A program made the position numbers and the translations under genes. The notes under the pieces are model-generated. The model searched no databases and had not been told where the DNA came from. It worked only from the letters and a program-made list of their open reading frames with translations. DNA of 64,000 bases from NCBI RefSeq assembly GCF_964355755.1, contig NC_092676.1, positions 13,192,771 to 13,256,770 of the forward strand, written 5' to 3'. Positions 1-27,341 of the stretch are shown here, one piece after another. Origin of the DNA: Antedon mediterranea (Eukaryota > Animalia > Echinodermata). Within the stretch, counting starts at the first letter, position 1; the number at the start of each line of letters is the position of its first letter.

Positions 1-3000
1 AATAGCTTCAAATCGCATTTGGAGACGTTTTAGACCATTTTGTGCATTTCGATGAAACTTGGTTACACAAAAACATGAAATTGCTTAAAATCACATTTGA
101 AACCGTTTTAGACCATTTTGAGCATTTCGATAAAACTTTTCACACAAAAAAATCAAAGTGCACAAAATAGCTTCAAATCGCATTTGGAGACGTTTTAGAC
201 TATTTTGTGCATTTTGAAAAAATTTGTTAACATAAAAAGACCAAAGTGTTTAGAATATCTCCAAATCGCATTTGGAGACGTTTTAAACCATTTTGTGCAT
301 TTCGATGGAACTTGGTTACACAAAAACATCAAAGTGCTTAAAATCACATTTAAAACCGTTTTAGAACATTTTGAGCATTTCGATAAAACTTTTCACACAA
401 AAACATCAAATTGCACAAAATAGCTTAATACCGTGTTTGAAATCGTTTTAAACCATTTTGAGCATGTCGATAAAACTTTACACAAAAAAACATCAAAGTG
501 CACAGAATAGCTTCAAATCGCATTTGGAGACGTTTTAAACCATTTTGTGCATTTCAATAAAACTTTTCACATAAAAACAACAAAGTGTACAAAATAGCTT
601 CAAATCGCATTTAGAGACGTTTTAGACCATTTTGGGCATTTCGATGAAACTTGGTTACACAAATACATAAAAATGCTTAAAATCACATTTCAAACCGTTT
701 TAGAGCATTTTGAGCATTTCGATAAAACTTTTCACACAAAAACATCAAAGTGCACAAAATAGCTTCAAATCGCATTTAGAGATGTTTTAGACCATTTTGT
801 GCAATTCGATAAAACTTTTCACACAAAAACATCAAATTGCACAAAATAGCTTAATATCGTGTTTGAAAACGTTTTAGACCATTTTGAGCATGTCGATAAA
901 ACTTTTCACACAAAAACATAAAAGTGAACAGAATAGCTTCAAATTGCATTTGGAGACGTTTTAGAGCATTTTGTGCATTTCGATAAAATGTGTTAACATA
1001 AAAAGACCAAAGTGTTTAGAATATCTTCAAATCACATTTGGAGACGTTTTAGACCATTTTTTGCATTTCGATGAAACTTGGTTACACAAAAACATCAAAG
1101 TGCTTAAAATCACATTTAAAACCGTTTTAGAGCATTTTGAGCATTTCAATAAAACTTTTCACACAAAAACATCAAAGTGTACAAAATAGCTTCAAATCGC
1201 ATTTAGAGAGGTTTTAGACCATTTTGTGCATTTCGATAAAACTTTTCACACAAAAACATCAAAGTGTACAAAATAACTTCAAATCGTATTTAGAGACGTT
1301 TTAGACCATTTTGTGCATTTTGATAAAACTTTTCACACAAAAACATCAAATTGCACGAAATAGCTTAATATCGTGTTTGAAAACGTTTTAAACCATTTTG
1401 AGCATGTCGATAAAACTTTTCACACAAAAATATCAAAGTGCACAGAATATCTTCAAATCGCATTTAGAGACGTTTTAGACCATTTTGTGCATTTCGAAAA
1501 AATTTGTTAACATAAAAAGACCAAAGTGTTTAGAATATCTCCAAATCGCATTTGGAGACGTTTTAGACCATTTTGTGTTTTTCAAAAAAAACTTTTCACA
1601 CAAAAACATCAAAGTGTACAAAATTCCTTCAAATCGCATTTGGAGACGTTTTAGACCATTTTGTGATTTTCGAAAAACTTTTCACACAAAAACATCAAAG
1701 TGTAGAAAATTGCTTCAAATCGCATTTAGAGATGTTTTAGACCATTTTGTGCATTTCGAAAAAATTTGTTAACATAAAAAGACCAAAGTGTTTAGAATAT
1801 CTCCAAATCGCATTTGGAGACGTTTTAGACCATTTTGTGCATTTCGATGACACTTGGTTACACAAAAACATCAAAGTGCTTAAAATCACATTTAAAACCG
1901 TTTTAGAGCGTTTTGAGCATTTCGATAAACTTTTCAAACAAAAACATCAAAGTGTACAAAATAGCTTCAAATCGTATTTGGAGACGTTTTAGACCATTTT
2001 GTGCGTTTCGATGAATCTTGGTTACACAAAAACATCAAAGTGCTTAAAATCACATTTAAAACCGTTTTAGTGCATTTTGAGCATTTCGATAAAACTTTTC
2101 ACACAAAAACATCAAAGTGCACAAAATAGCTTCAAATCGCATTTAGAGATGTTTTAGACCATTTTGTGCGTTTCGATAAAACTTTTCACACAAAAACATC
2201 AAATTGCACAAAATAGCTTAATATCGTGTTTGAAAACGTTTTAGACCATTTTGAGCATGTCGATAAAACTTTTCACACAAAAACATAAAAGTGCACAGAA
2301 TAGCTTCAAATCGCATTTGGAGACGTTTTAGACCATTTTGTGCATTTCGATAAAACTTTTTAACATAAAAACACCAAAGTGCTTAGAATAGCTTCAAATC
2401 GCATTTGGAGACGTTTTAGACCATTTTGTGCATTTCGATGAAACTTGGTTACACAAAAACATCAAAGTGCTTAAAATCACATTTGAAACCGTTTTAGAGC
2501 ATTTTGAGCATTTCGATAAAACTTTTCACACAAAAACATCAAAGTGTACAAAATAGCTTCAAATCACATTTGAAACCGTTTTAGACCATTTTGAGCATTT
2601 CGATGAAACTTGGTTACACAAAAACATCAAAGTGCTTAAAATCACATTTGAAACCGTTTTAGAGCATTTTGAGCATTTCGATAAAACTTTTCACACAAAA
2701 ACATCAAATTGCACAAAATAGCTTAATATCGTGTTTGAAAACGTTTTAGACCATTTTGAGCATGTCGATAAAACTTTTCACACAAAAACATAAAAGTGAA
2801 CAGAATAGCTTCAAATTGCATTTGGAGACGTTTTAGCATTTTGTGCATTTCGATAAAATGTGTTAACATAAAAAGACCAAAGTGTTTAGAATATCTTCAA
2901 ATCACATTTGGAGACGTTTTAGACCATTTTTTGCATTTCGATGAAACTTGGTTACACAAAAACATCAAAGTGCTTAAAATCACATTTAAAACCGTTTTAG

Positions 3001-3509
3001 AGCATTTTGAGCATTTCGATAAAACTTTTCACACAAAAACATCAAAGTGTACAAAATAGCTTCAAATCGCATTTAGAGAGGTTTTAGACCATTTTGTGCA
3101 TTTCGATAAAACTTTTCACACAAAAACATCAAAGTGTACAAAATAACTTCAAATCGTATTTAGAGACGTTTTAGACCATTTTGTGCATTTTGATAAAACT
3201 TTTCACACAAAAACATCAAATTGCACAAAATAGCTTAATATCGTGTTTGAAAACGTTTTAAACCATTTTGAGCATGTCGATAAAACTTTTCACACAAAAA
3301 TATCAAAGTGCACAGAATATCTTCAAATCGCATTTGGAGACGTTTTAGACCATTTTGTGTTTTTCGAAAAAACTTTTCACACAAAAACATCAAAGTGTAC
3401 AAAATTGCTTCAAATCGCATTTGGAGACGTTTTAGACCATTTTGTGATTTTCGAAAAACTTTTCACACAAAAACATCAAAGTGTAGAAAATTGCTTCAAA
3501 TCGCAAAAA
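1..3509. repeat. Satellite DNA array, segment 1 (87/88/78/86-bp monomers)
   Basis: Head-to-tail monomers. 87-bp type: TTTTGTGCATTTCGATAAAACTTTTCACACAAAAACATCAAAGTGTACAAAATAGCTTCAAATCGCATTTAGAGACGTTTTAGACCA (period 1221 to 1308). 78-bp type carries GATGAAACTTGGTTACAC...GTGCTTAAAATCAC (33 to 111). 88-bp type carries AAAAAATTTGTTAACATAAAAAGACC (198 to 286). Confidence 0.98.
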
Positions 3510-3798
3510 TAATTTCTTCCGAGTAAAAATACCAAAGGAAGAATCGTTTGTGTCAATGGGGTTCACTCTATTAGTATAGTTTATCGGTCAGTTTCCCATG
3601 ACTTTATGTAAACTGTTTGGATGGGATGACCATGAAGCTACCGATTTATGATATCCTCAGGGTAGAATGGTATTCAAAGTATGACTGGTAAACTCATTAA
3701 ATTCTAGGCGTGTGGTTTAATTCTGAAGCACGACATTCGCTTCATAACCGTCTCCGGACAAACATCGCATTTATTAAGTTTGCTGTATAAAATAATTT
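3506..3798 (+). repeat. Split direct repeat A1 (293 bp)
   Basis: Identical by eye to 9376-9668 (offset 5870). Begins and ends with AAAATAATTT. Confidence 0.95.
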
Positions 3799-3927
3799 TT
3801 AAATTTAATTAATTTTGTAATTTTAACTTCTTTTAACGGAGTGGTATTGTTTCGTGAACTAGCTGTTTTACCTCTTATAGGGTATTTATCGGGTATGTAT
3901 TACGTTTAATTGCAATTTTTAAGTATC

Positions 3928-4524
3928 ATGGAACGGATACCTGTTCGTCACGAAGTATGCATACTCGGACACTCTTTTATTCGGCGTTTGGCTGAACACG
4001 TGAGTAATTCTTCTGATGACAAACATTTGCGCCTAAATAATTCATATTTACTGGACTTTAAATCCAAAGGCGGTGCCAGAGTACGGAACCTACCCTCTTT
4101 ATTCAAAGGCCGTACATCGTTCGACATAGTATACATTCAGATGGGAGAAAATGACATAGGAACATGTAATATTTCAACCTTCATACGACACTATCAGGCA
4201 TTCATTGACTTTTTATTGCTGGGGGCAGATGTCAAATTAGTGATAATAGGAGAGCTCATCCGTAGGTTACCGAAAAACTCCGTACCCACGTTCAACACTA
4301 CGATAAAGAAAGTAAATAATATTTTAGAATCACTTTTCGCTGACCATCCTAAAGTGATTTTTTGGAGGCATCGCGGTTTTAAGGCGGACTTTACTCACGT
4401 GGGAAGAGATGGTGTGCATTTAAGCACTGCTGATCATGTCCACAAATTATCAGGAATGAAGCGGTTCATTAGAAGTGTGCGGAACGCCCTAATATATGGA
4501 ACAAAACTTTTAAGGCCAGTATAA
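3928..4524 (+). CDS. SGNH/GDSL-family hydrolase (esterase) of the retrotransposon, 198 aa from the first ATG
   Basis: Block I VCILGHSFIRRL (GDS-like serine), block II SKGGARV, block III YIQMGENDI (GxND), block V GRDGVHLS (DxxH). The ORF track starts at a TTG (3910); the first ATG is 3928. Confidence 0.88.
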   Translation: MERIPVRHEVCILGHSFIRRLAEHVSNSSDDKHLRLNNSYLLDFKSKGGARVRNLPSLFKGRTSFDIVYIQMGENDIGTCNISTFIRHYQAFIDFLLLGADVKLVIIGELIRRLPKNSVPTFNTTIKKVNNILESLFADHPKVIFWRHRGFKADFTHVGRDGVHLSTADHVHKLSGMKRFIRSVRNALIYGTKLLRPV

Positions 4525-5346
4525 CATAAATTATTTAAGATTAGGCTTTATAGACGACGGTCTTGTATCATCGTTTATACTAAGTCGACGGGATGGTGTG
4601 CAACACACATGTCTCCAACTTACATTTTTCTTTTACTGTCAAAGTAAAACTCTATTTTTTTTACGTTTTATGTGCCAATTTTTGGCCAAGTTACAATACG
4701 TAAATGTGATACTTTTAATACCTGGATCATTTTAACCTCACGTTTATTTCTTTTTGCTCATGACGGTGGCCTTAGGCAACATTACTGTTCTTTTATATAG
4801 GCCAACCATTTTTACATCGAGCTACTATCGGCAGAGTTTTTCACCCTGCCTTTGAGGTTATTTTTGCTCTCATTTCGAGCATTTTATTTTCTACGATTCG
4901 TTTTGCTCTCATATAGATAGGGGCCTAAGTAGAAACATTTTTATTTCCGGCTATGTTTTGGTCCAGGGACATATACCGGAAGATACCTTACTATTTGAAA
5001 CTTTTGCTGCTACTTTGCTTTACGCCCGAGGGACAATTTTGCTAGCTCAATGACTCATAACAGTGCATTCGTTTTTAAAGAATTGCACGACTTTTACTTA
5101 TGTTGGGTGGTTTACACCAACACTATATCTGACCTATATTTCTGAGCTATATTTGGTCTCCTCGTATTTCTAATTTCATTGCACATGCAATGCTTGGCGA
5201 TTCTATTTAAAGTAAGCAAGCCTTTGTAAGGTACCAGTAATAGGTATCTTATGTGCTCAGGAAAATTCCTCACATTAACCTATCATTTTAAACACTTTTT
5301 CTTTTATGCTGGGGCTACAGGAGTCCAGTAGGCGTCCAGAAACAAT

Positions 5347-6255
5347 ATGCCAAAAACAACGTCAAAAAATTCAAAAACGGGAAAAAACGCTCAGAAAAAG
5401 AAGGTACCGCAGGTAGCGACGTCGCTTGACTATGCCAAACTGGCAAAAGAACTGCACGCCTTACAACAAGTGGAGAGTCAAAAAGAACCTCAGGACAGCC
5501 ACGCAGTATCCAAGGACATCGTGTCGACGACACCAGTACCTGAATTTATCCACCAAATTCCAGGTGAGGAGCTTTTGGCTCAACCCGATATCCATATATC
5601 AGAGGCCATCCCCCTTGGGGCAGGTATCAGCGCAGCCATCAAAAATAAAATATGGAATGATACATTTATTGAACTGCGTTCACTACTTCCTAGTTATAAA
5701 GAACAAGCTACAGTAACGGGCATGTCGGTAGGCAATGGCAACATACAGCTTCACCATGAACCACCCCAACAACAACAACCGCTTGAATTTTTAGATTGGG
5801 TGAAAGCGATGCATATTTATGTATCCATATATATATTGAAAGAGAAAGAAGCATGCCAACCTATGCTTAAGTATATAGCTAACATTCTAGATATTTATAC
5901 GTCGGGTCCGGTAGGGGCATGGCGAAGATACGACTTGAACTTCCGAAAAGCGAGACAATCTCGTCCACTAGAATGGGGGCTCTTGAATACAGAACTCCTC
6001 GTAAAATGCTATAATTATTTACGTACTGACACGTCCCAAACCAAACGTTTTCAAAGTAAATTTCAGAGTTCCTTTCAAAACACGCGAAACCGGGGAGTCT
6101 GTTGGAACTGGAACGACGGAAAGGATTGTAGAAAGAAACCCTGTACCCTCAAACATACTTGCGACATTTGCAGGGGAAACCACCCAAAAATTCGTTGCCA
6201 AAAACCTAACAAAATTAGGCAACCACCATCCTTTCTCGCTACCAACCCCAATTAG
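5347..6255 (+). CDS. gag: Gag-like ORF with C-terminal Cys/His zinc finger, 302 aa
   Basis: Basic N-terminus. IKNKIWNDTFIELRSLL and WRRYDLNFR...LEWG motifs resemble DIRS/Ngaro ORF1. Zinc finger CWNWNDGKDCRKKPCTLKHTCDICRGNHPKIRC. Lies immediately before RT. Confidence 0.85.
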   Translation: MPKTTSKNSKTGKNAQKKKVPQVATSLDYAKLAKELHALQQVESQKEPQDSHAVSKDIVSTTPVPEFIHQIPGEELLAQPDIHISEAIPLGAGISAAIKNKIWNDTFIELRSLLPSYKEQATVTGMSVGNGNIQLHHEPPQQQQPLEFLDWVKAMHIYVSIYILKEKEACQPMLKYIANILDIYTSGPVGAWRRYDLNFRKARQSRPLEWGLLNTELLVKCYNYLRTDTSQTKRFQSKFQSSFQNTRNRGVCWNWNDGKDCRKKPCTLKHTCDICRGNHPKIRCQKPNKIRQPPSFLATNPN

Positions 6256-6268
6256 ACTGAACAACCTA

Positions 6269-7825
6269 ATGTCTTACTTAACAGGTTCCCCACAAGGTAT
6301 GTACGCATCCATTTTGGCCGGCTTTAAACATGGTTTTACATTAGGCTCGATAACTCCACCCAATCCTATGACAGCTAAAAACCATAGAAGTTGTTTCACA
6401 TACTCGGAAGCGGTAACTGACTTTATTAAAAAGGGAGTACTCTTAGGCAGAATTGCTGGACCGTTCTCATCACCACCCTTTAAAAACTTCAGAATTTCTC
6501 CGTTAGGTGTAATTCCAAAATCGGAACCAGGTAAATTTAGAATCATACACGATTTATCTTATCCGAAAGGTAATTCCGTCAATGACACGATTCCTACCGG
6601 GGAAAAAATTGTACAATACGACAACATTGACACAATTGTCAAACAAGTATTAAAGTTTGGGGTGGGCAGTCTCATGGCAAAAACGGATATCGAAGAGGCC
6701 TTTCGGATTATCCCGATCACACCCACAGATTATTGGCTTTTAGGTTTTTCATGGGAAGGTAGTTTTTACTATGATAAGTGCCTACCCATGGGGGCATCAA
6801 GTTCTTGCAATCGCTTTGGTTTGTTCAGCGACTCATTAACGTGGATTATGCAAAACAAGTTCCAAACCCAGGGCATATCACATTTATTAGATGATTTTTG
6901 GTTCATAGGGGAAGCCGATTCCAATACCTGTTTAAATTCCCTGACTAATTTTATGTTTCTTTGTTCACAAGTAGGGGTCCCGATCAAGTACAGTAAAACT
7001 GTTACGCCAAGAACATGCTTGACCATATATGGGATAGAAGTGGATACTCTGTCTATGGAATGTAGACTTCCTATAGAAAAAGTATTAAAAATTCGGGAAA
7101 AACTATCCTATTTTATGTCTAGGCAAAAAGTCACCTTAAAAGAATTACAATCTCTGTTAGGCCTCCTCAACTTTGCTTGTTGTGTAGTCGTTCCGGGCCG
7201 CCCATTTTTACGCCGATTAATAAATTTAACAGCGGGAAAACAATCTAATTCAAGAAAACCCCTAGCCACCGATTTCCGTACTTTAACGAGCGAGACCAAG
7301 GAAGACTTAAACACTTGGTTAGAATTTGCCAATAACTTTAATGGGAAGGCCATGATTTTAGAAGAAATTTGGTTATCTTCTTCAACCCTCAATTTATTTA
7401 CTGATGCATCGGGCTCAATCGGGTGCGCAGGGGTTCTCAATGAAAAGTGGTTTGCGATTCGTTGGCCAATTTACATGCAACATCACTCAATCGCCGCGAA
7501 AGAAATGTTCCCCATTGTTTTAGCTCTCGAATTATGGGGCCATCGGCTATCTAATAAATTCATCCTATTTCAGTCCGACAATCTAGCGGTGGTATATATC
7601 ATAAATAAGAAAACCGCTAGAGATAACGTGCTACTACGTCTACTAAGACGATTAATACTCTGCTGTCTAAATCACAACATTTATTTTAGAGCCCAACACA
7701 TTCAGGGGGTCAAAAATGTTCTGGCTGATTGGTTATCTCGCTTCAAAATCGACAAAGCTTTACAAACCTTTAAGCAGTTGAAAATTATTCCATCTGTCGT
7801 ACCCTCCTCGTTTATTTATATTTAA
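6269..7825 (+). CDS. Reverse transcriptase / RNase H (DIRS/Ngaro type); frame is open from 6005
   Basis: RT motifs SPLGVIPK, GKFRIIHDLS, KTDIEEAFR, LPMG, HLLDDF. RNase H motifs LFTDASG, IAAKE, FQSDN, HIQGVKNVLADWLSR. Uninterrupted 518 aa. Confidence 0.95.
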   Translation: MSYLTGSPQGMYASILAGFKHGFTLGSITPPNPMTAKNHRSCFTYSEAVTDFIKKGVLLGRIAGPFSSPPFKNFRISPLGVIPKSEPGKFRIIHDLSYPKGNSVNDTIPTGEKIVQYDNIDTIVKQVLKFGVGSLMAKTDIEEAFRIIPITPTDYWLLGFSWEGSFYYDKCLPMGASSSCNRFGLFSDSLTWIMQNKFQTQGISHLLDDFWFIGEADSNTCLNSLTNFMFLCSQVGVPIKYSKTVTPRTCLTIYGIEVDTLSMECRLPIEKVLKIREKLSYFMSRQKVTLKELQSLLGLLNFACCVVVPGRPFLRRLINLTAGKQSNSRKPLATDFRTLTSETKEDLNTWLEFANNFNGKAMILEEIWLSSSTLNLFTDASGSIGCAGVLNEKWFAIRWPIYMQHHSIAAKEMFPIVLALELWGHRLSNKFILFQSDNLAVVYIINKKTARDNVLLRLLRRLILCCLNHNIYFRAQHIQGVKNVLADWLSRFKIDKALQTFKQLKIIPSVVPSSFIYI

Positions 7826-7902
7826 TTTATTTTAATTTTCCCCTTTTACAAATAGTTATCCACTTTTTATTCATAGGACCTTCAACAAGGGATGATGACA
7901 TT

Positions 7903-8817
7903 TTGTGGCCTTCACGTGCAAACTTGTCACAATCAGCTCGTCAATTAATCAAAGCGTCCTTGTCAACTTCATCTCGTAAGGCTTATTTACGAAGTTGGGA
8001 ATTACTCAATAGGTGGTCGGTAGATAAAAGAACTCTACCGCTACTTCCAACCCATCTCTGTAACTTTATTGCATTTTTATTTGAGAAAGGGTACGCTCCA
8101 AGCACTATTCATTCTCACGTTTCGGCTATTTGTTTCATTCACAAAATTCACAGCTTTCCTGACCCTTCCGATTCTTTTCTGGTTAAGAAAACTCTCCGCG
8201 GCATGCATGCTTCGGCAAATTCAAAAGACACACGCTTGCCTATTACAATTGATATCCTTAGAAAATTAATCAGGGCCCTAGATACTACAGTTACGTCTAG
8301 AAAAATGAGAATGCTGTTGTCAGCATTTTTCTTAGTAGCATTTCAGGGTTTCATGCGAGTGGGCGAATTAGCGGCTCGTTCGGGTATGGAAGCAAAAGTG
8401 CTCCAACGCGATGATATTACATTCACTTCCACGGGTATGAACTTAACATTACGCCATTCTAAGACTTCTACGGGAAAACCTCCGATCATTGTAAATATTA
8501 CATCACAAACAAATAAGGCGTTTTGCCCTGTACACCACCTTCGGGTGTATTTAGATTCCTTCGGTCATACGCACGGTCCTCTATTCCAACACATGAACGG
8601 TAAACCAGTGACACCACAATTCGTATCATCGTGCATTAAGACAGCAATTTCTTGTATTGGGTTAAACACTAATTTATACAAAGGCCATAGTTTTAGAATA
8701 GGAGCGGCTACGCACGCCGCAGGTCTTGGGCTGTCAGAGCATATAATTCAAAAGATGGGGCGTTGGTCCTCCGATGCCTTTAAAACCTATATACGGATAC
8801 ATTCCTTCAAAATCTAG
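7903..8817 (+). CDS. Tyrosine recombinase (lambda-integrase family); true start uncertain, probably spliced
   Basis: Catalytic residues in GFMRVGEL (R), RHSKT (K), GHSFRIGAAT (HxxR), MGRWSSDAFKTYIR (W, Y). N-terminal core-binding region SLSTSSRKAY...GYAPSTIHSHVSAI. The track start is a TTG, and the first in-frame ATG is only at 8203. Confidence 0.93.
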   Translation: MWPSRANLSQSARQLIKASLSTSSRKAYLRSWELLNRWSVDKRTLPLLPTHLCNFIAFLFEKGYAPSTIHSHVSAICFIHKIHSFPDPSDSFLVKKTLRGMHASANSKDTRLPITIDILRKLIRALDTTVTSRKMRMLLSAFFLVAFQGFMRVGELAARSGMEAKVLQRDDITFTSTGMNLTLRHSKTSTGKPPIIVNITSQTNKAFCPVHHLRVYLDSFGHTHGPLFQHMNGKPVTPQFVSSCIKTAISCIGLNTNLYKGHSFRIGAATHAAGLGLSEHIIQKMGRWSSDAFKTYIRIHSFKI

Positions 8818-8854
8818 TTTACCACATAAAACACGGCGTTTGGCCGAACATACC

Positions 8855-8909
8855 GAGCGTATGGCTCTTGATAATGAGTTTGTGGCTCTTGATAATGAGC
8901 GTGTGGCTC
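8855..8909 (+). repeat. 21-bp minisatellite, about 2.6 copies, in the element 3' UTR
   Basis: GAGCGTATGGCTCTTGATAAT / GAGTTTGTGGCTCTTGATAAT / GAGCGTGTGGCTC. Confidence 0.85.
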
Positions 8910-9078
8910 AAGAGTAAGGTCTTTTACATTAAAATAGATGTTTGTAACTTTGGTAGTTAACTAAGTACTGTATTAGTACTGGTATGTTAGATGATACTGT
9001 TTCGTTTTAAATTTCCTTGTCTTTTTTTTTTTCTTTCTTTCTTGGTTTTGTTTGGGTGCTCCCATTTCCAATGGGTTC

Positions 9079-9379
9079 TGGCCTTTTTGGCACCCACGAT
9101 TATAAGCATGTATCATTATATCATTATATTTTATTTTATATTAATTTAAACTACTGTGTTAACTACAGTTTTGATTTCAATGTTTATGTTTCTATTCGAT
9201 CAATTATTATTATACATGTTTAACCTGTAATTTAAGGGCAGAGAGTGAACCCACATTTCGTAGGGAAGATCAATTCTCTCGTAATTTTTATTGCTTCCCT
9301 ACTTTGCGTCATTATCAAATAAAATGGCATTTGACACTAAACTTGTTTCGTATTTTTGTGAGAGCCAGTTGTCACAAAA
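9079..9379 (+). repeat. Split direct repeat B1 (about 300 bp)
   Basis: Matches 9721-10021 (offset 642); one mismatch seen (T9101 vs G9743). Confidence 0.95.
9318..9323 (+). promoter_or_regulatory. Putative polyadenylation signal AATAAA in repeat B (also 9960-9965 in B2)
   Basis: AATAAA about 55 nt before the end of B, followed by the GT/T-rich CTTGTTTCGTATTTTTGTG. Confidence 0.5.
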
Positions 9380-9668
9380 TAATTTCTTCCGAGTAAAAAT
9401 ACCAAAGGAAGAATCGTTTGTGTCAATGGGGTTCACTCTATTAGTATAGTTTATCGGTCAGTTTCCCATGACTTTATGTAAACTGTTTGGATGGGATGAC
9501 CATGAAGCTACCGATTTATGATATCCTCAGGGTAGAATGGTATTCAAAGTATGACTGGTAAACTCATTAAATTCTAGGCGTGTGGTTTAATTCTGAAGCA
9601 CGACATTCGCTTCATAACCGTCTCCGGACAAACATCGCATTTATTAAGTTTGCTGTATAAAATAATTT
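9376..9668 (+). repeat. Split direct repeat A2
   Basis: Copy of A1 directly abutting B1 at GTCAC-AAAA-TAATTTC. Confidence 0.95.
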
Positions 9669-9720
9669 CCCGCCTCCACCCCTTACTCCACCGGTGTTAT
9701 CGTACGGTGTTTTATAAGTT

Positions 9721-10021
9721 TGGCCTTTTTGGCACCCACGATGATAAGCATGTATCATTATATCATTATATTTTATTTTATATTAATTTAAACTACTGTG
9801 TTAACTACAGTTTTGATTTCAATGTTTATGTTTCTATTCGATCAATTATTATTATACATGTTTAACCTGTAATTTAAGGGCAGAGAGTGAACCCACATTT
9901 CGTAGGGAAGATCAATTCTCTCGTAATTTTTATTGCTTCCCTACTTTGCGTCATTATCAAATAAAATGGCATTTGACACTAAACTTGTTTCGTATTTTTG
10001 TGAGAGCCAGTTGTCACAAAA
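9721..10021 (+). repeat. Split direct repeat B2 (right terminus of the element)
   Basis: Copy of B1 ending GTTGTCACAAAA, after which the satellite resumes. Confidence 0.95.
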
Positions 10022-13000
10022 AATGTTTTGAGAGATGTTTTAGAACAATTTTGTGCATTTAGAAAAAATTTGTTAACATAAAAAGACCAAAGTGTTTAGA
10101 ATATCTCCAAATCGCATTTGGAGACGTTTTAGACCATTTTGTGCATTTCGAAAAAATTTGTTAACATAAAAAGACCAAAGTGTTTAGAATATCTCCAAAT
10201 CGCATTTGGAGACGTTTTAGACCATTTTGTGCATTTCGATGAAACTTGGTTACACAAAAACATCAAAGTGCTTAAAATCACATTTAAAACCGTTTTAGAG
10301 CGTTTTGAGCATTTCGATAAACTTTTCACACAAAAACATCGGAGTGCACAAAATAGCTTCAAATCGCATTTAGAGATGTTTTAGACCATTTTGTGCATTT
10401 CGATAAAACTTTTCACACAAAAACATCAAATTGCACAAAATAGCTTAATATCGTGTTTGAAATCGTTTTAAACCATTTTGAGCATGTCGATAAAACTTTT
10501 CACACAAAAACATCAAAGTGCACAGAATATCTTCAAATCGCATTTAGAGACGTTTTAGACCATTTTGTGCATTTCGAAAAAATTTGTTAACATAAAAAGA
10601 CCAAAGTGTTTAGAATATCTCCAAATGCGATTTGGAGACGTTTTAGACCATTTTGTGATTTTCGAAAAACTTTTCACACAAAAACATCAAAGTGTAGAAA
10701 ATTGCTTCAAATCGCAAAAAAAATGTTTTGAGAGATGTTTTAGAACAATTTTGTGCATTTAGAAAAAATTTGTTAACATAAAAAGACCAAAGTGTTTAGA
10801 ATATCTCCAAATCGCATTTGGAGACGTTTTAGACCATTTTGTGCATTTCGAAAAAATTTGTTAACATAAAAAGACCAAAGTGTTTAGAATATCTCCAAAT
10901 CGCATTTGGAGACGTTTTAGACCATTTTGTGCATTTCGATGAAACTTGGTTACACAAAAACATCAAAGTGCTTAAAATCACATTTAAAACCGTTTTAGAG
11001 CGTTTTGAGCATTTCGATAAACTTTTCACACAAAAACATCAGAGTGCACAAAATAGCTTCAAATCGCATTTAGAGATGTTTTAGACCATTTTGTGCATTT
11101 CGATAAAACTTTTCACACAAAAACATCAAATTGCACAAAATAGCTTAATATCGTGTTTGAAATCGTTTTAAACCATTTTGAGCATGTCGATAAAACTTTT
11201 CACACAAAAACATCAAAGTGCACAGAATATCTTCAAATCGCATTTAGAGACGTTTTAGACCATTTTGTGCATTTCGAAAAAATTTGTTAACATAAAAAGA
11301 CCAAAGTGTTTAGAATATCTCCAAATCGCATTTGGAGACGTTTTAGACCATTTTGTGCATTTCGATGAAACTTGGTTACACAAAAACATCAAAGTGCTTA
11401 AAATCACATTTGAAACCGTTTTAGAGCATTTTGAGCATTTCGATAAAACTTTTCACACAAAAACATCAAAGTGTACAAAATAGCTTCAAATCACATTTAA
11501 AACCGTTTTAGACCATTTTGAGCATTTCGATAAAACTTTTCACACAAAAACATCAAAGTGTACAAAATAGCTTCAAATCGCATTTGGAGACGTTTTAGAC
11601 CATTTTGTGCATTTCGATGAAACTTGGTTACACAAAAACATCAAAGTGCTTAAAATCACATTTGAAACCGTTTTAGAGCATTTTTAGCATTTCGATAATA
11701 CTTTTCACACAAAAACATCAAAGTGTACAAAATAGCTTCAAATCGCATTTGGAAACGTTTTAGACCATTTTGTGCATTTCGATGAAACTTGGTTACACAA
11801 AAACATCAAAGTGCTTAAAATCACATTTGAAACCGTTTTAGACCATTTTGAGCATTTCGATAAAACTTTTCACACAAAAAAATCAAAGTGCACAAAATAG
11901 CTTCAAATCGCATTTGGAGACGTTTTAGACTATTTTGTGCATTTCGAAAAAATTTGTTAACATAAAAAGACCAAAGTGTTTAGAATATCTCCAAATCGCA
12001 TTTGGAGACGTTTTAAACCATTTTGTGCATTTCGATGGAACTTGGTTACACAAAAACATCAAAGTGCTTAAAATCACATTTAAAACCGTTTTAGAGCATT
12101 TTGAGCATTTCGATAAAACTTTTCACACAAAAACATCAAAGTGTACAAAATAGCTTCAAATCGCATTTAGAGAGGTTTTAGACCATTTTGTGCATTTCGA
12201 TAAAACTTTTCACACAAAAACATCAAAGTGTACAAAATAGCTTCAAATCGCATTTGGAGACGTTTTAGACCATTTTGTGCATTTCGATGAAACTTGGTTA
12301 CACAAAAACATCAAAGTGCTTAAAATTACATTTGAAAGCGTTTTAGAGCATTTTGAGCATTTCGATAATACTTTTCACACAAAAACATCAAAGTGTACAA
12401 AATAGCTTCAAATCGCATTTGGAGACGTATTAGACCATTTTGTGCATTTCGATGAAACTTGGTTACACAAAAACATCAAAGTGCTTAAAATCACATTTGA
12501 AACCGTTTTAGACCATTTTGAGCGTTTCGATAAAACTTTTCACACAAAAACATCAAAGTGCACAAAATAGCTTCAAATCGCATTTGGAGACGTTTTAGAC
12601 TATTTTGTGCATTTCGAAAAAATTTGTTAACATAAAAAGACCAAAGTGTTTAGAATATCTCCAAATCGCATTTGGAGACGTTTTAAACCATTTTGTGCAT
12701 TTCGATGGAACTTGGTTACACAAAAACATCAAAGTGCTTAAAATCACATTTAAAACCGTTTTAGACCATTTTGTGCATTTCGATGGAACTTGGTTACACA
12801 AAAACATCAAAGTGCTTAAAATCACATTTAAAACCGTTTTAGAGCATTTTGAGCATTTCGATAAAACTTTTCACACAAAAACATCAAAGTGTACAAAATA
12901 GCTTCAAATCGCATTTAGAGAGGTTTTATACCATTTTGTGCATTTCGATAAAACTTTTCACACAAAAACATCAAAGTGTACAAAATAGCTTCAAATCGCA

Positions 13001-16000
13001 TTTAGAGACGTTTTAGACCATTTTGTGCATTTTGATAAAACTTTTCACACAAAAACATCAAATTGCACAAAATAGCTTAATATTGTGTTTGAAAACGTTT
13101 TAAACCATTTTGAGCATGTCGATAAAACTTTTCACACAAAAATATCAAAGTGCCCAGAATATCTTCAAATCGCATTTAGAGACGTTTTAGACCATTTTGT
13201 GCATTTCGAAAAAATTTGTTAACATAAAAAGACCAAAGTGTTTAGATTATCTCCAAATTGCATTTGGAGACGTTTTAGACCATTTTGTGTTTTTCGAAAA
13301 AACTTTTCACACAAAAACATCAAAGTGTACACAATTCCTTCAAATCGCATTTAGAGAGGTTTTAGACCATTTTGTGCATTTCGATAAAACTTTTCACACA
13401 AAAACATCAAAGTGCACAGAATATCTTAATACCGTGTCTGAAATCGTTTTAAACCATTTTGAGCATGTTGATAAAACTTTTCACACAAAAACATCAAAGT
13501 GCACAGAATATCTTCAAATCGCATTTAGAGACGTTTTAGACCATTTTGTGCATTTCGAAAAAATTTGTTAACATAAAAAGACCAAAGTGTTTAGAATATC
13601 TCCAAATCGCATTTGGAGACGTTTTAGACCATTTTGTGCATTTCGATGAAACTTGGTTACACAAAAACATCAAAGTGCTTAAAATCACATTTGAAACCGT
13701 TTTAGAGCATTTTGAGCATTTCGATAAAACTTTTCACACAAAAACATCAAAGTGTACAAAATAGCTTCAAATCTCATTTAGAGACGTTTTAGACCATTTT
13801 GTGCATTTCGAAAAAATTTGTTAACATAAAAAGACCAAAGTGTTTAGAATATCTCCAAATCGCATTTGGAGACGTTTTAGACCATTTTGTGCATTTCGAT
13901 GAAACTTGGTTACACAAAAACATCAAAGTGCTTAAAATCACATTTGAAACCGTTTTAGAGCATTTTTAGCATTTCGATAATACTTTTCACACAAAAACAT
14001 CAAAGTGTACAAAATAGCTTCAAATCGCATTTGGAGACGTTTTAGACCATTTTGTGCATTTCGATGAAACTTGGTTACACAAAAACATGACAGTGCTTAA
14101 AATCACATTTGAAACCGTTTTAGACCATTTTGAGCATTTCGATAAAACTTTTCACACAAAAAAATCAAAGTGCACAAAATAGCTTCAAATCGCATTTGGA
14201 GACGTTTTAGACTATTTTGTGCATTTTGAAAAAATTTGTTAACATAAAAAGACCAAAGTGTTTAGAATATCTCTAAATCGCATTTGGAGACGTTTTAAAC
14301 CATTTTGTGCATTTCGATGGAACTTGGTTACACAAAAACATCAAAGTGCTTAAAATCACATTTAAAACCGTTTTAGAGCATTTTGAGCATTTCGATAAAA
14401 CTTTTCACACAAAAACATCAAATTGCACAAAATAGCTTAATACCGTGTTTGAAATCGTTTTAAACCATTTTGAGCATGTCGATAAAACTTTACACAAAAA
14501 AACATCAAAGTGCACAGAATAGCTTCAAATCGCATTTGGAGACGTTTTAAACCATTTTGTGCATTTCGATAAAACTTTTCACATAAAAACAACAAAGTGT
14601 ACAAAATAGCTTCAAATCGCATTTAGAGACGTTTTAGACCATTTTGGGCATTTCGATGAAACTTGGTTACACAAATACATAAAAATGCTTAAAATCACAT
14701 TTCAAACCGTTTTAGAGCATTTTGAGCATTTCGATAAAACTTTTCACACAAAAACATCAAAGTGCACAAAATAGCTTCAAATCGCATTTAGAGATGTTTT
14801 AGACCATTTTGTGCAATTCGATAAAACTTTTCACACAAAAACATCAAATTGCACAAAATAGCTTAATATCGTGTTTGAAAACGTTTTAGACCATTTTGAG
14901 CATGTCGATAAAACTTTTCACACAAAAACATAAAAGTGAACAGAATAGCTTCAAATTGCATTTGGAGACGTTTTAGAGCATTTTGTGCATTTCGATAAAA
15001 TGTGTTAACATAAAAAGACCAAAGTGTTTAGAATATCTTCAAATCACATTTGGAGACGTTTTAGACCATTTTTTGCATTTCGATGAAACTTGGTTACACA
15101 AAAACATCAAAGTGCTTAAAATCACATTTAAAACCGTTTTAGAGCATTTTGAGCATTTCGATAAAACTTTTCACACAAAAACATCAAAGTGTACAAAATA
15201 GCTTCAAATCGCATTTAGAGAGGTTTTAGACCATTTTGTGCATTTCGATAAAACTTTTCACACAAAAACATCAAAGTGTACAAAATAACTTCAAATCGTA
15301 TTTAGAGACGTTTTAGACCATTTTGTGCATTTTGATAAAACTTTTCACACAAAAACATCAAATTGCACAAAATAGCTTAATATCGTGTTTGAAAACGTTT
15401 TAAACCATTTTGAGCATGTCGATAAAACTTTTCACACAAAAATATCAAAGTGCACAGAATATCTTCAAATCGCATTTAGAGACGTTTTAGACCATTTTGT
15501 GCATTTCGAAAAAATTTGTTAACATAAAAAGACCAAAGTGTTTAGAATATCTCCAAATCGCATTTGGAGACGTTTTAGACCATTTTGTGTTTTTCGAAAA
15601 AACTTTCACACAAAAACATCAAAGTGTAGAAAATTGCTTCAAATCGCATTTAGAGATGTTTTAGACCATTTTGTGCATTTCGAAAAAATGTGTTAACATA
15701 AAAAGACCAAATTGTTTAGAATATCTCCAAATCGCATTTGGAGACGTTTTAGACCATTTTGTGCATTTCGATGACACTTGGTTACACAAAAACATCAAAG
15801 TGCTTAAAATCACATTTAAAACCGTTTTAGAGCGTTTTGAGCATTTCGATAAACTTTTCAAACAAAAACATCAAAGTGTACAAAATAGCTTCAAATCGTA
15901 TTTGGAGACGTTTTAGACCATTTTGTGCGTTTCGATGAATCTTGGTTACACAAAAACATCAAAGTGCTTAAAATCACATTTAAAACCGTTTTAGTGCATT

Positions 16001-19000
16001 TTGAGCATTTCGATAAAACTTTTCACACAAAAACATCAAATTGCACAAAATAGCTTAATATCGTGTTTGAAAACGTTTTAGACCATTTTGAGCATGTCGA
16101 TAAAACTTTTCACACAAAAACATAAAAGTGAACAGAATAGCTTCAAATTGCATTTGGAGACGTTTTAGAGCATTTTGTGCATTTCTATAAAATGTGTTAA
16201 CATAAAAAGACCAAAGTGTTTAGAATATCTTCAAATCACATTTGGAGACGTTTTAGACCATTTTTTGCATTTCGATGAAACTTGGTTACACAAAAACATC
16301 AAAGTGCTTAAAATCACATTTAAAAGCGTTTTAGAGCATTTTGAGCATGTCGATAAAACTTTTCACACAAAAATATCAAAGTGCACAGAATATCTTCAAA
16401 TCGCATTTAGAGACGTTTTAGACCATTTTGTGCATTTCGAAAAAATTTGTTAACATAAAAAAACCAAAGTGTTTAGAATATCTCCAAATCGCATTTGGAG
16501 ACGTTTTAGACCATTTTGTGTTTTTCGAAAAAACTTTTCACACAAAAACATCAAAGTGTACAAAATTCCTTCAAATCGCATTTGGAGACGTTTTAGACCA
16601 TTTTGTGATTTTCGAAAAACTTTTCACACAAAAACATCAAAGTGTAGAAAATTGCTTCAAATCGCATTTAGAGATGTTTTAGACCATTTTGTGCATTTCG
16701 AAAAAATTTGTTAACATAAAAAGACCAAAGTGTTTAGAATATCTCCAAATCGCATTTGGAGACGTTTTAGACCATTTTGTGCATTTCGATGACACTTGGT
16801 TACACAAAAACATCAAAGTGCTTAAAATCACATTTAAAACCGTTTTAGAGCGTTTTGAGCATTTCGATAAACTTTTCAAACAAAAACATCAAAGTGTACA
16901 AAATAGCTTCAAATCGTATTTGGAGACGTTTTAGACCATTTTGTGCGTTTCGATGAATCTTGGTTACATAAAAACATCAAAGTGCTTAAAATCACATTTA
17001 AAACCGTTTTAGTGCATTTTGAGCATTTCGATAAAACTTTTCACACAAAAACATCAAAGTGCACAAAATAGCTTCAAATCGCATTTAGAGATGTTTTAGA
17101 CCATTTTGTGCGTTTCGATAAAACTTTTCACACAAAAACATCAAAGTGCACAAAATAGCTTCAAATCGCATTTAGAGATGTTTTAGACCATTTTGTGCGT
17201 TTCGATAAAACTATTCACACAAAAACATCAAATTGCACAAAATAGCTTCAAATCGCATTTGGAGACGTTTTAGACCATTTTGTGCATTTCGAAAAAACTT
17301 TTTAACATAAAAACACCAAAGTGCTTAGAATAGCTTCAAATCGCATTTGGAGACGTTTTAAACCATTTTGTGCATTTCGATGAAACTTGGTTACACAAAA
17401 ACATCAAAGTGCTTAAAATCACATTTGAAACCGTTTTAGAGCATTTTGAGCATTTCGATAAAACTTTTCACACAAAAACATCAAAGTGTACAAAATAGCT
17501 TCAAATCACATTTGAAACCGTTTTAGACCATTTTGAGCATTTCGATAAAACTTTTCACACAAAAACATCAAAGTGTACAAAATAGCTTCAAATCGCATTT
17601 GGAGACGTTTTAGACCATTTTGTGCATTTCGATGAAACTTGGTTACACAAAAACATCAAAGTGCTTAAAATTACATTTGAAAGCGTTTTAGAGCATTTTG
17701 AGCATTTCGATAATACTTTTCACACAAAAACATCAAAGTGTACAAAATAGCTTCAAATCGCATTTGGAGACGTTTTAGACCATTTTGTGCATTTCGATGA
17801 AACTTGGTTACACAAAAACATCAAAGTGCTTAAAATCACATTTGAAACCGTTTTAGAGCATTTTGAGCATTTCGATAAAACTTTTCACACAAAAACATCA
17901 AAGTGTACAAAATAGCTTCAAATCGCATTTAGAGAGGTTTTAGACCATTTTGTGCATTTCGATAAAACTTTTCACACAAAAACATCAAAGTGTACAAAAT
18001 AGCTTCAAATCGCATTTAGAGACGTTTTAGACCATTTTGTGCATTTCGATAAAACTTTTCACACAAAAACATCAAATTGCACAACATAGCTTAATACCGT
18101 GTTTGTAATCGTTTTAAACCATTTTGAGCATGTCGATAAAACTTTTTACAAAAAAACATCAAAGTGCACAGAATAGCTTCAAATCGCATTTGGAGACGTT
18201 TTAAACCATTTTGTGCATTTCGATAAAACTTTTCACATAAAAACAACAAAGTGTACAGAATAGCTTCAAATCGCATTTGGAGACGTTTTAGACCATTTTG
18301 TGCATTTCGATGAAACTTGGTTACACAAAAACATCAAAGTGCTTAAAATCACATTTGAAACCGTTTTAGAGCATTTTTAACATTTCGATAATACTTTTCA
18401 CACAAAAACATCAAATTGCACAAAATAGCTTCAAATCACATTTGGAGACGTTTTAGACCATTTTGTGCATTTCGATGAAACTTGGTTACACAAAAACATC
18501 AAAGTGCTTAAAATCACATTTGAAACCGTTTTAGAGCATTTTGAGCATTTCGATAAAACTTTTCACACAAAAAAATCAAACTGCACAAAATAGCTTCAAA
18601 TCGTATTTGGAGAGGTTTTAGACCATTTTGTGCATTTCGATAAAACTTTTCACACAAAAACATCAAAGTGTACAAAATAGCTTCAAATCGCATTTAGAGA
18701 CGTTTTAGACCATTTTGTGCATTTCGATAAAACTTTTCACACAAAAACATCAAATTGCACAAAATAGCTTAATATCGTGTTTGAAAACGTTTTAAACCAT
18801 TTTGAGCATGTCGATAAAACTTTTCACAAAAAAATATCAAAGTGCACAGAATATCTTCAAATCGCATTTAGAGACGTTTTAGACCATTTTGTGCATTTCG
18901 ATGAAACTTGGTTACACAAAAACATCAAAGTGCTTAAAATCACATTTAAAACCGTTTTAGAGCGTTTTGAGCATTTCGATAAACTTTTTACACAAAAACA

Positions 19001-25000: not shown

Positions 25001-27051
25001 ACATTTCGAAAAAATTTGTTAACATAAAAAGACCAAAGTGTTTAGAATATCTCCAATTCGCATTTGGAGACGTTTTAAACCATTTTGTGCATTTCGATGG
25101 AACTTGGTTACACAAAAACATCAAAGTGCTTAAAATCACATTTAAAACCGTTTTAGAGCATTTTTAGCATTTTGTTAAAACTTTTCACACAAAAAAATCA
25201 AAGTGTACAAAATAGCTTCAAATCGCATTTGGAGACGTTTTAGACCATTTTGTGCATTTCGATGAAACTTGGTTACACAAAAACATGAAATTGCTTAAAA
25301 TCACATTTGAAACCGTTTTAGACCATTTTGAGCATTTCGATAAAACTTTTCACACAAAAAAATCAAAGTGCACAAAATAGCTTCAAATCGCATTTGGAGA
25401 CGTTTTAGACTATTTTGTGCATTTTGAACAAATTTGTTAACATAAAAAGACCAAAGTGTTTAGAATATCTCCAAATCGCATTTGGAGACGTTTTAAACCA
25501 TTTTGTGCATTTCGATGGAACTTGGTTACACAAAAACATCAAAGTGCTTAAAATCACATTTAAAACCGTTTTAGAGCATTTTGAGCATTTCGATAAAACT
25601 TTTCACACAAAAACATCAAATTGCACAAAATAGCTTAATACCGTGTTTGAAATCGTTTTAAACCATTTTGAGCATGTCGATAAAACTTTACACAAAAAAA
25701 CATCAAAGTGCACAGAATAGCTTCAAATCGCATTTGGAGACGTTTTAAACCATTTTGTGAATTTCGATATTCATATATATTCATATTCACATAAAAACAA
25801 CAAAGTGTACAAAATAGCTTCAAATCGCATTTAGAGACGTTTTAGACCATTTTGGGCATTTCGATGAAACTTGGTTACACAAATACATAAAAATGCTTAA
25901 AATCACATTTCAAACCGTTTTAGAGCATTTTGAGCATTTCGATAAAACTTTTCACACAAAAACATCAAAGTGCACAAAATAGCTTCAAATCGCATTTAGA
26001 GATGTTTTAGACCATTTTGTGCAATTCGATAAAACTTTTCACACAAAAACATCAAATTGCACAAAATAGCTTAATATCGTGTTTGAAAACGTTTTAGACC
26101 ATTTTGAGCATGTCGATAAAACTTTTCACACAAAAACATAAAAGTGAACAGAATAGCTTCAAATTGCATTTGGAGACGTTTTAGAGCATTTTGTGCATTT
26201 CGATAAAATGTGTTAACATAAAAAGACCAAAGTGTTTAGAATATCTTCAAATCACATTTGGAGACGTTTTAGACCATTTTTTGCATTTCGATGAAACTTG
26301 GTTACACAAAAACATCAAAGTGCTTAAAATCACATTTAAAACCGTTTTAGAGCATTTTGAGCATTTCGATAAAACTTTTCACACAAAAACATCAAAGTGT
26401 ACAAAATAGCTTCAAATCGCATTTAGAGAGGTTTTAGACCATTTTGTGCATTTCGATAAAACTTTTCACACAAAAACATCAAAGTGTACAAAATAACTTC
26501 AAATCGTATTTAGAGACGTTTTAGACCATTTTGTGCATTTTGATAAAACTTTTCACACAAAAACATCAAATTGCACAAAATAGCTTAATATCGTGTTTGA
26601 AAACGTTTTAAACCATTTTGAGCATGTCGATAAAACTTTTCACACAAAAATATCAAAGTGCACAGAATATCTTCAAATCGCATTTAGAGACGTTTTAGAC
26701 CATTTTGTGCATTTCGAAAAAATTTGTTAACATAAAAAGACCAAAGTGTTTAGAATATCTCCAAATCGCATTTGGAGACGTTTTAGACCATTTTGTGTTT
26801 TTCGAAAAAACTTTTCACACAAAAACATCAAAGTGTACAAAATTCCTTCAAATCGCATTTGGAGACGTTTTAGACCATTTTGTGATTTTCGAAAAACTTT
26901 TCACACAAAAACATCAAAGTGTAGAAAATTGCTTCAAATCGCATTTAGAGATGTTTTAGATCATTTTGTGCATTTCGAAAAAATTTGTTAACATAAAAAG
27001 ACCAAAGTGTTTAGAATATCTCCAAATCGCATTTGGAGACGTTTTAGACCA
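10018..27051. repeat. Satellite DNA array, segment 2
   Basis: Same monomer families and the same orientation as segment 1. Confidence 0.98.
16350..27050 (+). repeat. About 5.0-5.27-kb higher-order tandem duplication within the satellite (boundaries approximate)
   Basis: Constant offsets between variant-marked monomers: 18777/24042 and 19227/24492 (5265); 20149/25415, 20925/26191 and 21700/26966 (5266); 16428/21439 (5011, about one 253-bp trimer shorter). Confidence 0.8.
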
Positions 27052-27074
27052 GATACAGATACAGATAAAGATAA
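27051..27074 (-). repeat. LINE 3' tandem-repeat tail (KTATCT)4, preceded by AATAAA (27077-27082, minus strand)
   Basis: Plus strand reads AGATAC AGATAC AGATAA AGATAA. Confidence 0.85.
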
Positions 27075-27121
27075 CTTTTATTGTCCAAATAAACTGGAAA
27101 TTGCATTTGCTCACTTATCAC

Positions 27122-27156
27122 ATAAAAATATCGTATAAAAATATCGTATAAAAATA
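27122..27156. repeat. 13-bp tandem repeat in the LINE 3' UTR
   Basis: ATAAAAATATCGT twice, followed by ATAAAAATA. Confidence 0.8.
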
Positions 27157-27341
27157 AAGTATAAAATGCAGAATAACAATATAAAAATACACAATGATTA
27201 AAAAAGTACATCATAAAATTACAGCTCAAAAATATTTAAGTTAAAAATACAGATCATTACAAAACGGTTTAAAAAGTGTCTTATATTTCATTATTAATTA
27301 TTATATTATATTATTTATTATTGTTATCAAAATTATTGTAG

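What the first reader, a model, noticed from the sequence alone, without database searches (positions are those of the whole stretch)
3506..10021. Intact, very young satellite-resident Ngaro-like YR retrotransposon with its hydrolase gene first
Seen: four uninterrupted ORFs, A1 equal to A2, and B1/B2 differing at one base, all inside a large satellite array. Gene order is SGNH hydrolase, gag, RT/RH, YR. Established: Ngaro elements have split direct repeats and some carry an SGNH hydrolase; as I recall it normally lies downstream of the YR. Inference: a possibly active lineage with rearranged gene order living in (peri)centromeric satellite, potentially a YR counterpart of centrophilic LTR elements.
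Basis: partly seen in the sequence, partly recalled or inferred. Interest (0 to 1): 0.85.

Follow-up and report, generated by a model that had tools for sequence, protein, structure and literature searches.

The report
Esterase-first retrotransposon clustered in satellite DNA
An intact, recently inserted jumping gene in the satellite DNA of what is likely a feather star carries its esterase gene first instead of last, an order shared by many marine-invertebrate relatives, and about half of the other insertion sites recovered for its family lie in this same satellite, so it likely favours or survives best in such arrays.

Summary
Observation confirmed: a 6,516-bp Ngaro-type element (A1=A2; B1/B2 one mismatch; four open frames; no target duplication) in an 87-bp satellite of a likely Antedon feather star.

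The hydrolase-first order is real but not peculiar to this element. 36 of 67 fetched loci have hydrolase before gag (52 were fetched with a hydrolase-first query); only 1 has the published order, hydrolase after YR, and it is very distant. Oyster and mussel gene models agree. This is a wide, old marine-invertebrate branch that I did not find described (Repbase and key reviews unseen).

The hydrolase has its own ATG. The start-less recombinase is likely made by splicing from a gag leader exon; the scan noted such splicing before on other DNA, in shellfish elements.

Satellite residence has independent support: 4 of 7 other insertion sites lie in this satellite, in both orientations, but all four come from one related species and one study. 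Targeting versus retention is unresolved, and centromere identity is untested. Centromeric YR elements are already known (Dictyostelium DIRS-1, nototheniid DIRS1).

Verdict: new variant of a known kind; interest 0.5.

The parts
3506..3798 (+). Split direct repeat A1 (293 bp); ends in a TATA-like stretch
   Evidence: Identical to A2; TATA-like letters seen directly, promoter role inferred
3928..4524 (+). SGNH/GDSL hydrolase ORF, 198 aa, own ATG, first gene
   Evidence: GHS14, GGAR48, GEND73, DGVH161 intact; homologues; 4C1B hit; Atlas matches for homologue P0001
5297..5320 (+). Candidate splice acceptor 26 nt before the gag ATG (with a candidate donor at 3892|3893 it would skip the hydrolase)
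   Evidence: Sequence only; the upstream donor is not conserved in relatives; speculative
5347..6255 (+). Gag-like ORF, 302 aa, with C-terminal CCCH and CCHC fingers
   Evidence: homologous ORF at the same place in related loci
5561..5569 (+). Predicted phase-1 splice donor (CAG|GTGAGG, 5563|5564) ending a 72-codon gag leader
   Evidence: Best donor is phase 1 in 13 of 15 families against 160 of 396 control windows, p=3e-4
6005..7825 (+). RT/RNase H ORF (first ATG 6269, 518 aa); overlaps gag; no methyltransferase domain
7774..8817 (+). Tyrosine recombinase ORF without a usable start; predicted phase-1 acceptors at 7855|7856 and 7876|7877
   Evidence: PF00589; R-K-H-R-W-Y residues intact; both acceptors keep the frame with the gag donor
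9079..9379 (+). Split direct repeat B1 (301 bp), AATAAA at 9318
9376..9668 (+). Split direct repeat A2; shares AAAA (9376-9379) with B1, the presumed recombination core
9669..9720 (+). 52-bp spacer between A2 and B2
   Evidence: also seen after A in runs X1, X5, X9
9721..10021 (+). Split direct repeat B2 (301 bp), one mismatch to B1
1..3505 (+). 87-bp satellite array, left flank (runs off the window)
10022..64000 (+). 87-bp satellite array (87/78/88/86-bp units, kb-scale internal duplications at 97-99.6%), interrupted by a LINE at about 27052-29735; runs off the window

Best explanation
This is an intact, recently inserted Ngaro-type tyrosine-recombinase retrotransposon whose SGNH esterase gene comes first, an order shared by a wide marine-invertebrate branch, and whose family is likely enriched in this 87-bp satellite. 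Likely working: a transcript from A1 is reverse-transcribed and closed into a circle through the A and B repeats, and the recombinase crosses the short AAAA core at the B|A junction with a target A-run, usually (C)AAA, leaving no duplication (circle model from the literature; junction anatomy shown here). The esterase has its own ATG and would be translated as a free protein from the 5' end, unlike the start-less 3' hydrolase of the canonical type; by analogy with the ZfL2-1 esterase it would bind or cut lipids to help particle assembly or trafficking (untested). The start-less recombinase is predicted to be made by splicing a 72-codon gag leader onto it. Satellite enrichment likely comes from a regional insertion bias, helped by the very high density of CAAA sites in the array and by weak selection there.
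For: Structure and intact catalytic residues. One difference in 594 repeat bases, 0.17% (95% range 0.004-0.94%). Differences from other copies are mostly silent: 16 of 27 coding differences among the 40 shown of 202. Order: hydrolase within 3 kb before gag in 36 of 67 loci, 20 of them with all four genes; directly after YR in 1 of 67. Among the 15 loci fetched by RT alone: 5 hydrolase-first, 1 canonical, 1 likely next tandem unit, 8 uninformative. Gene models P0156 (Saccostrea) and P0183, P0202 (Mytilus) join hydrolase to downstream gag. In run X6 (related species, 2.9% different) overlapping contigs cover repeat A, hydrolase, gag, RT and YR in this order. In-frame ATG for the hydrolase in 12 of 12 hydrolase-first-type rows and none in the canonical L062. 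Splice donor 13 of 15 families, p=3e-4; P0156 joins the gag start to the YR start. Five terminus junctions match the satellite with 0-3 mismatches (shuffles 4-11), at least 4 distinct sites, both orientations; 3 do not match. With a generous satellite share of 10%, 4 of 7 has p=0.003. CAAA occurs at 55 per kb in the array against 11 expected.
Against: All four independent satellite sites come from organism B, two samples of one study; the one other young-family flank seen in organism A and the one in organism C are not satellite, and a third non-satellite flank is in organism B. One diverged non-satellite copy (X2) was left out; with it the count is 4 of 8. The loose-end table was cut (26 rows not shown), and contigs did not show the window's own junctions, so recovery is incomplete. 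The satellite share of the genome is only a rough figure from contig depth, which the tool says is no copy number. An unrelated young LINE sits in the same array, as expected if the array simply keeps insertions. Acceptor phase support is weak: 8 of 11 outright, 9 with a tie, p=0.04 for 9. One Mytilus model (P0182) has gag before hydrolase. A-count at the junctions implies a 7-A target while both empty sites have 8. No named Ngaro, PAT or DIRS reference could be placed in the RT tree.
Confidence: 0.65

Rival explanations
1. Active targeting: Gag or the recombinase tethers integration to this satellite's chromatin, possibly the centromere, as centrophilic LTR elements do.
For: At least 4 further satellite sites, in different registers and both orientations, with little sequence shared beyond AA(A). 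No unique-DNA flank among 27 records laid in X8 or 4 in X6. The array is over 60 kb, homogeneous, and at least 7.4 and 9.2 Mb from the ends of its piece. Cafeteria Ngaros show strong site preference linked to ORF1.
Against: 3 of 7 independent flanks are not satellite. No targeting domain found by Pfam. No CENP-A data. Related loci show no shared satellite context (repeat scan was not designed for this).
Confidence: 0.25
2. Passive safe haven: insertion is close to random at (C)AAA sites; copies persist and multiply in the array because selection is weak there and array blocks are duplicated.
For: A second, unrelated young retroelement is in the same 64 kb. The array has kb-scale duplications at 97-99.6%. 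CACAAAA, the end of repeat B, is about 85-fold denser in the array than expected (18 against 0.2 per kb).
Against: Duplication cannot create distinct registers or a reverse-orientation site. Only one or two of the five satellite sites use CACAAAA; CAAA is only five-fold enriched. 4 of 7 stays unlikely at an effective share of 15% (p=0.012).
Confidence: 0.3
3. Origin of the order: the hydrolase-first branch arose by moving the terminal-repeat cassette across the hydrolase of a canonical Ngaro (the cyclic gene order gag-RT-YR-hydrolase is the same), for example in a tandem array, and not by a separate capture.
For: Head-to-tail arrays exist (L057, probably L056). The Atlas finds a chordate-dominated cluster close to this hydrolase (genomic context unknown). 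The L062 3' hydrolase is detected by the profile of 5' hydrolases.
Against: The only 3'-type hydrolase in hand lies on a very long branch (5.5 changes per column) and its RT on a long one (2.16); SGNH domains were captured many times by retroelements.
Confidence: 0.4
4. The element is an echinoderm-form PAT element, not a Ngaro.
For: Echinoderm-form Pat1 elements also have split direct repeats and a Gag zinc finger (fingers).
Against: No methyltransferase: no Dam family hit, no DPPY-type motif, and the frame ends 27 residues after the RNase H ADWLSR motif. A hydrolase is reported for Ngaro, a methylase for DIRS and PAT.
Confidence: 0.05

Closest known systems
Hydrolase-bearing Ngaro-like elements, Xenopus DIRS-53_XT and DIRS-54_XT (PMC9210276; passages and section 8 read, supplement not available)
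   Same: A1-ORFs-B1-A2-B2 repeats, gag, RT/RH, YR, no methyltransferase, an SGNH hydrolase ORF, young intact copies
   Different: There the hydrolase follows YR and all frames overlap; here it is first, has its own ATG and is 822 bp from gag
Cafeteria burkhardae Ngaro types 1-4 (PMC8547959; passages read)
   Same: Same repeat plan; family-level preference for a particular kind of host DNA
   Different: Target there is endogenous virophage DNA; no hydrolase mentioned (0 hits in the text); preference shown on 80 mapped copies, here on 7-8 junctions
Dictyostelium DIRS-1 (PMC7192593; passages read) and nototheniid DIRS1 (PMC5941688; passages read)
   Same: YR retrotransposons confined to or accumulating in centromeric and pericentromeric regions; short shared motif at the junction instead of a target duplication
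   Different: Inverted repeats with an ICR and a methyltransferase; DIRS-1 inserts into earlier copies of itself, not into a short satellite
ZfL2-1 ORF1p esterase, PDB 4C1B (PMC3905857; abstract read)
   Same: Best solved-structure match to the hydrolase profile (E=4e-5); SGNH esterase in the first ORF of a retroelement; active and lipid-binding in vitro
   Different: A LINE, where the esterase is part of ORF1p with a coiled coil; here a stand-alone ORF ahead of a separate gag
Unnamed hydrolase-first relatives: Antedon mediterranea XP_071964109.1, Saccostrea echinata XP_061195156.1, Mytilus coruscus CAC5396515.1, loci L001-L065
   Same: Same hydrolase family and, where readable, the same order
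   Different: Annotated only as uncharacterized proteins; no satellite context shown

Membership tests
Ngaro-like (order DIRS) | Split direct repeats A1-ORFs-B1-A2-B2 with the internal pair downstream of YR | tested here: met
   definition
Ngaro-like (order DIRS) | gag, RT/RNase H and tyrosine recombinase ORFs; no protease or DDE integrase | tested here: met
Ngaro-like (order DIRS) | No methyltransferase domain after RNase H | tested here: met
   No Dam hit at E<=0.1; no DPPY-type motif; frame ends 27 residues after ADWLSR
Ngaro-like (order DIRS) | RT falls in the Ngaro clade | not testable with these tools
   No named Ngaro, PAT or DIRS reference among the 120 listed hits; the tree holds only unnamed relatives
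Ngaro-like (order DIRS) | Insertion without target duplication, through a short motif shared with the B|A junction | tested here: met
   Flanks in register, A-run on both sides, one A short of the empty sites; other junctions share AA(A)
Amphibian-type hydrolase Ngaro (DIRS-53_XT) | SGNH hydrolase ORF downstream of YR | tested here: not met
   Hydrolase is upstream of gag; no ORF of 60 codons between YR and B1 other than short AT-rich frames
PAT-like (echinoderm-form Pat1) | Methyltransferase domain | tested here: not met
PAT-like (echinoderm-form Pat1) | Split direct repeats and Gag zinc finger | tested here: met
   shared with Ngaro, so not diagnostic
DIRS1-like | Inverted terminal repeats and internal complementary region | tested here: not met
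   Self-comparison gives only direct repeats
Centrophilic retrotransposon (functional class) | Copies enriched in the satellite array | tested here: inconclusive
   4 of 7 independent sites in the satellite, all from one species and study
Centrophilic retrotransposon (functional class) | The array is the CENP-A-bound centromere | not testable with these tools
   No chromatin data; no whole genome held
SGNH/GDSL hydrolase | Catalytic Ser, Gly, Asn, Asp-x-x-His in blocks I, II, III, V | tested here: met
   activity not tested

The most novel reading that the evidence does not exclude
An undescribed esterase-first Ngaro branch of marine invertebrates includes a feather-star family that actively targets the centromeric 87-bp satellite, the first satellite-seeking Ngaro in an animal, with a free lipid esterase and a spliced Gag-leader recombinase as candidate targeting parts.
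Probability: 0.25. Interest if true: 0.72.

Novelty: new variant of a known kind. Interest (0 to 1): 0.5.

Why it matters
How tyrosine-recombinase retrotransposons choose targets, how their start-less recombinase is expressed and what their esterase does are all open. This family gives intact young copies, several mapped target sites with a three- to four-base core, a testable splice junction and a stand-alone esterase with its own start codon. It also shows that the textbook picture (hydrolase after YR, amphibians) misses a large invertebrate branch. If the satellite is centromeric, it adds an animal Ngaro to the few YR elements that live in centromeres.

Tried and rejected
No whole genome is held, so copies could not be mapped directly. 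A single-sequence RT scan of metagenome contigs and an RT-alignment scan of viral contigs found nothing. No RNA holder listed; X5 is only guessed to be RNA and showed no splice joint: no evidence either way. The circle junction cannot be told from the internal B1|A2 junction in contigs, so the 'goes back' joint is no evidence of circles. Depth figures gave only a rough satellite amount (0.3-0.9 Mb) and about 7-9 young copies in X6; not used as copy numbers. A conserved donor ahead of the hydrolase was looked for and not found. My first B1/B2 comparison was out of register by one base and was redone. The first order scan missed the 3' hydrolase of L062; the profile scan found it. RT tree: L001, L017, L020, L026, L037, L065 dropped (matched stretch under 250 aa); it shows hydrolase-first loci on both sides of the midpoint but cannot root or name the clade. 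Among 150 best hydrolase representatives none was fused to YR. Literature searches that found no description of a hydrolase-first Ngaro or of YR splicing in Ngaro: (listings only, apart from the papers named); no paper on Antedon satellites or centromeres. Poulter and Butler 2015 and Kojima 2020 are not held, Repbase and Dfam were not available, and the Xenopus supplement could not be read; any of these may already show this order. Rejected: assembly artefact (same element in three organisms' runs); host gene beside the element (hydrolase lies inside A1, and the repeat upstream of it recurs after YR in L002, L003, L054, L057).
Full report
Observation. The window is an 87-bp satellite array (629 units counted, mostly 87, 78, 88 and 86 bp; 87-mers differ by 10% on average; all on one strand) with two insertions. 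The first, 3506-10021, has A1 (3506-3798) identical to A2 (9376-9668), B1 (9079-9379) differing from B2 (9721-10021) at one base, a 52-bp spacer, and four stop-free frames. Pfam gives YR above its cut-off and RT and GDSL below it; homologues and motifs settle all three. The flanks are in register: joined, they match 42615-43816 at 99.2%. The target is a rare satellite variant with an 8-A run, of which two empty copies exist in the window; the filled site has 5 and 6 A, the B1|A2 junction 4. There is no target duplication.

Host and age. The best hydrolase hit is a 95%-identical Antedon mediterranea protein, so the host is likely an Antedon feather star or a close relative; earlier notes on this genome also say feather star. 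The repeats differ at 1 of 594 bases (0.17%, 95% range 0.004-0.94%). Contigs of organism A differ from this copy by about 0.5% (26 of 5,080 and 23 of 4,809), those of organism B by 2.9% (154 of 5,257). Of 27 coding differences among the 40 rows shown (of 202), 16 are silent, against roughly a quarter expected without selection (my approximation). The family is young, multi-copy and under purifying selection in at least three organisms. Current activity is not shown.

Gene order. The Xenopus paper places the hydrolase after YR (passages; section 8). Here it is first. That order is not peculiar to this element. Of 67 fetched loci, 36 have a hydrolase within 3 kb before gag (20 with all four genes), 21 show only the hydrolase, 8 show none, one (L056) has it 1.8 kb after YR, the spacing seen between tandem units in L057, and one (L062) has it 98 bp after YR. 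Fifty-two loci were fetched with a hydrolase-first alignment and many are copies of the same families, so the ratio is biased; among the 15 fetched by RT alone the split is 5 hydrolase-first, 1 canonical, 1 likely tandem and 8 uninformative. Oyster and mussel gene models join hydrolase to downstream gag (P0156, P0183, P0202); one mussel model has the reverse order and is ambiguous (P0182). In the RT tree hydrolase-first loci lie on both sides of the midpoint and L062 is on a long branch; its hydrolase is far from all others. The hydrolase family has 2,424 representatives at E<=1e-10, and its nearest Atlas clusters are mostly molluscan, cnidarian and chordate. So this is an old, wide marine-invertebrate branch. 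Whether it arose by relocation or by separate capture is open. I found no description, but Repbase, Poulter and Butler 2015 and Kojima 2020 were not available.

Expression. All 12 hydrolase-first-type hydrolases examined have an in-frame ATG, 11 of them within ten codons of the domain; the canonical L062 hydrolase has none and follows an acceptor-like stretch. The 5' position therefore likely frees the esterase from a Gag leader. For YR, a strong donor in gag (5563|5564) and two acceptors (7855|7856, 7876|7877) are all phase 1 and keep the frame. The best donor in the matching gag stretch is phase 1 in 13 of 15 families against 160 of 396 control windows (p=3e-4; weights recalled). Acceptors are phase 1 in 8 of 11, 9 with a tie (p=0.04 for 9), five at the same offset. 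The oyster model P0156 joins the same two parts. Earlier notes of this scan, read after these tests, report the same gag-leader splicing in shellfish elements; they are unchecked. No transcript was seen here.

Satellite residence. Contigs of public runs were laid on the element and on the B|A junction. Eight young-family terminus junctions outside the window were readable: five match the satellite with 0-3 mismatches in 16-25 letters (shuffles 4-11), three do not (12-14 in 30, like shuffles). Two of the five may be two ends of one insertion, so 4 of 7 sites are in the satellite, in different registers and one in reverse; a ninth, diverged, non-satellite junction was left out (4 of 8 with it). 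In X8 all 4 terminus junctions among 27 records laid are satellite. A rough depth sum puts this satellite at 0.3-0.9 Mb (not a copy number), well under 1% of a genome of about 0.3 Gb (size recalled). Even at a 10% share, 4 of 7 has p=0.003; at 20%, 0.03. Against: all four sites come from one species and one study, the table was cut, contigs missed the window's own junctions, the array has five times the expected CAAA and about 85 times the expected CACAAAA, and an unrelated young LINE sits in the same array. The shared target core is only AA(A), usually after C, so sequence alone explains part of the bias at most. Enrichment is likely; targeting versus retention is open.

Centromere. The array exceeds 60 kb and lies at least 7.4 and 9.2 Mb from the ends of its piece (offsets). 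That fits a centromere or any interstitial block. YR elements at centromeres are known: DIRS-1 in Dictyostelium and DIRS1 in nototheniid fishes; target-biased Ngaros are known from Cafeteria.

Mechanism, shown and inferred. Shown: repeats, frames, catalytic residues, gene order, junction letters, family presence in three organisms. From the literature: reverse transcription through the repeats to a circle and YR integration at a short shared motif (the circle is a model even for DIRS-1). Inferred: free esterase acting on lipids, by analogy with ZfL2-1 (abstract; profile hit); spliced Gag-leader recombinase; regional bias to the satellite.

Verdict. New variant of a known kind. The undescribed branch, the splice prediction and the satellite enrichment justify 0.5.

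Noticed in passing
window 27052-29735, minus strand: 5'-truncated LINE (RVT_1 E=2e-27; CR1 or Rex-Babar-like by my recall) with an 811-codon open frame and a (CAGATA)n tail, inserted in register in the same satellite without a clear target duplication; also young.
   Followed up: partly
window 3496-3509, 10707, 43207: The element sits in a rare 8-A satellite variant, present empty only twice among about 630 units; junction A-counts imply 7 A. Could be chance, a liking for long A-runs, or an excision site.
   Followed up: partly
run X9, record 24 (maps to 3507-3798): One contig reads unique flank, repeat A, then the spacer: a solo A-spacer-B unit or integration through the other B|A junction; may be an assembly path.
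   Followed up: no
L057 1-10620; L056 6356-6910: Head-to-tail tandem array of hydrolase-first elements (unit about 7.1 kb); in such arrays the hydrolase of the next unit follows YR at 1.8-1.9 kb and can mimic the canonical order.
   Followed up: partly
L062 3614-4174: Canonical 3' hydrolase without ATG, behind a pyrimidine-rich acceptor, in a distant Ngaro-like element.
   Followed up: partly
window 9405-9437 (and the same stretch in A1): A 33-base part of repeat A is shared with a diverged family seen in runs X6, X8, X10 and X2: possibly a conserved recombinase-binding or priming site.
   Followed up: no
L053-L067: Bacterial MAG records (Sedimenticola, Mariprofundus, Escarpia endosymbiont and others) carry animal-type Ngaro elements with splice signals, likely host DNA binned into the MAGs.
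   Followed up: no
window 10022-64000: The satellite has kb-scale internal duplications (up to 4.1 kb at 99.2%, offsets 1.7-62 kb), a sign of recent array turnover.
   Followed up: partly
P0184 (2,341 aa), P0307 (514 aa): Proteins made of six and two tandem copies of this hydrolase domain, source unnamed: possible domesticated or amplified forms.
   Followed up: no
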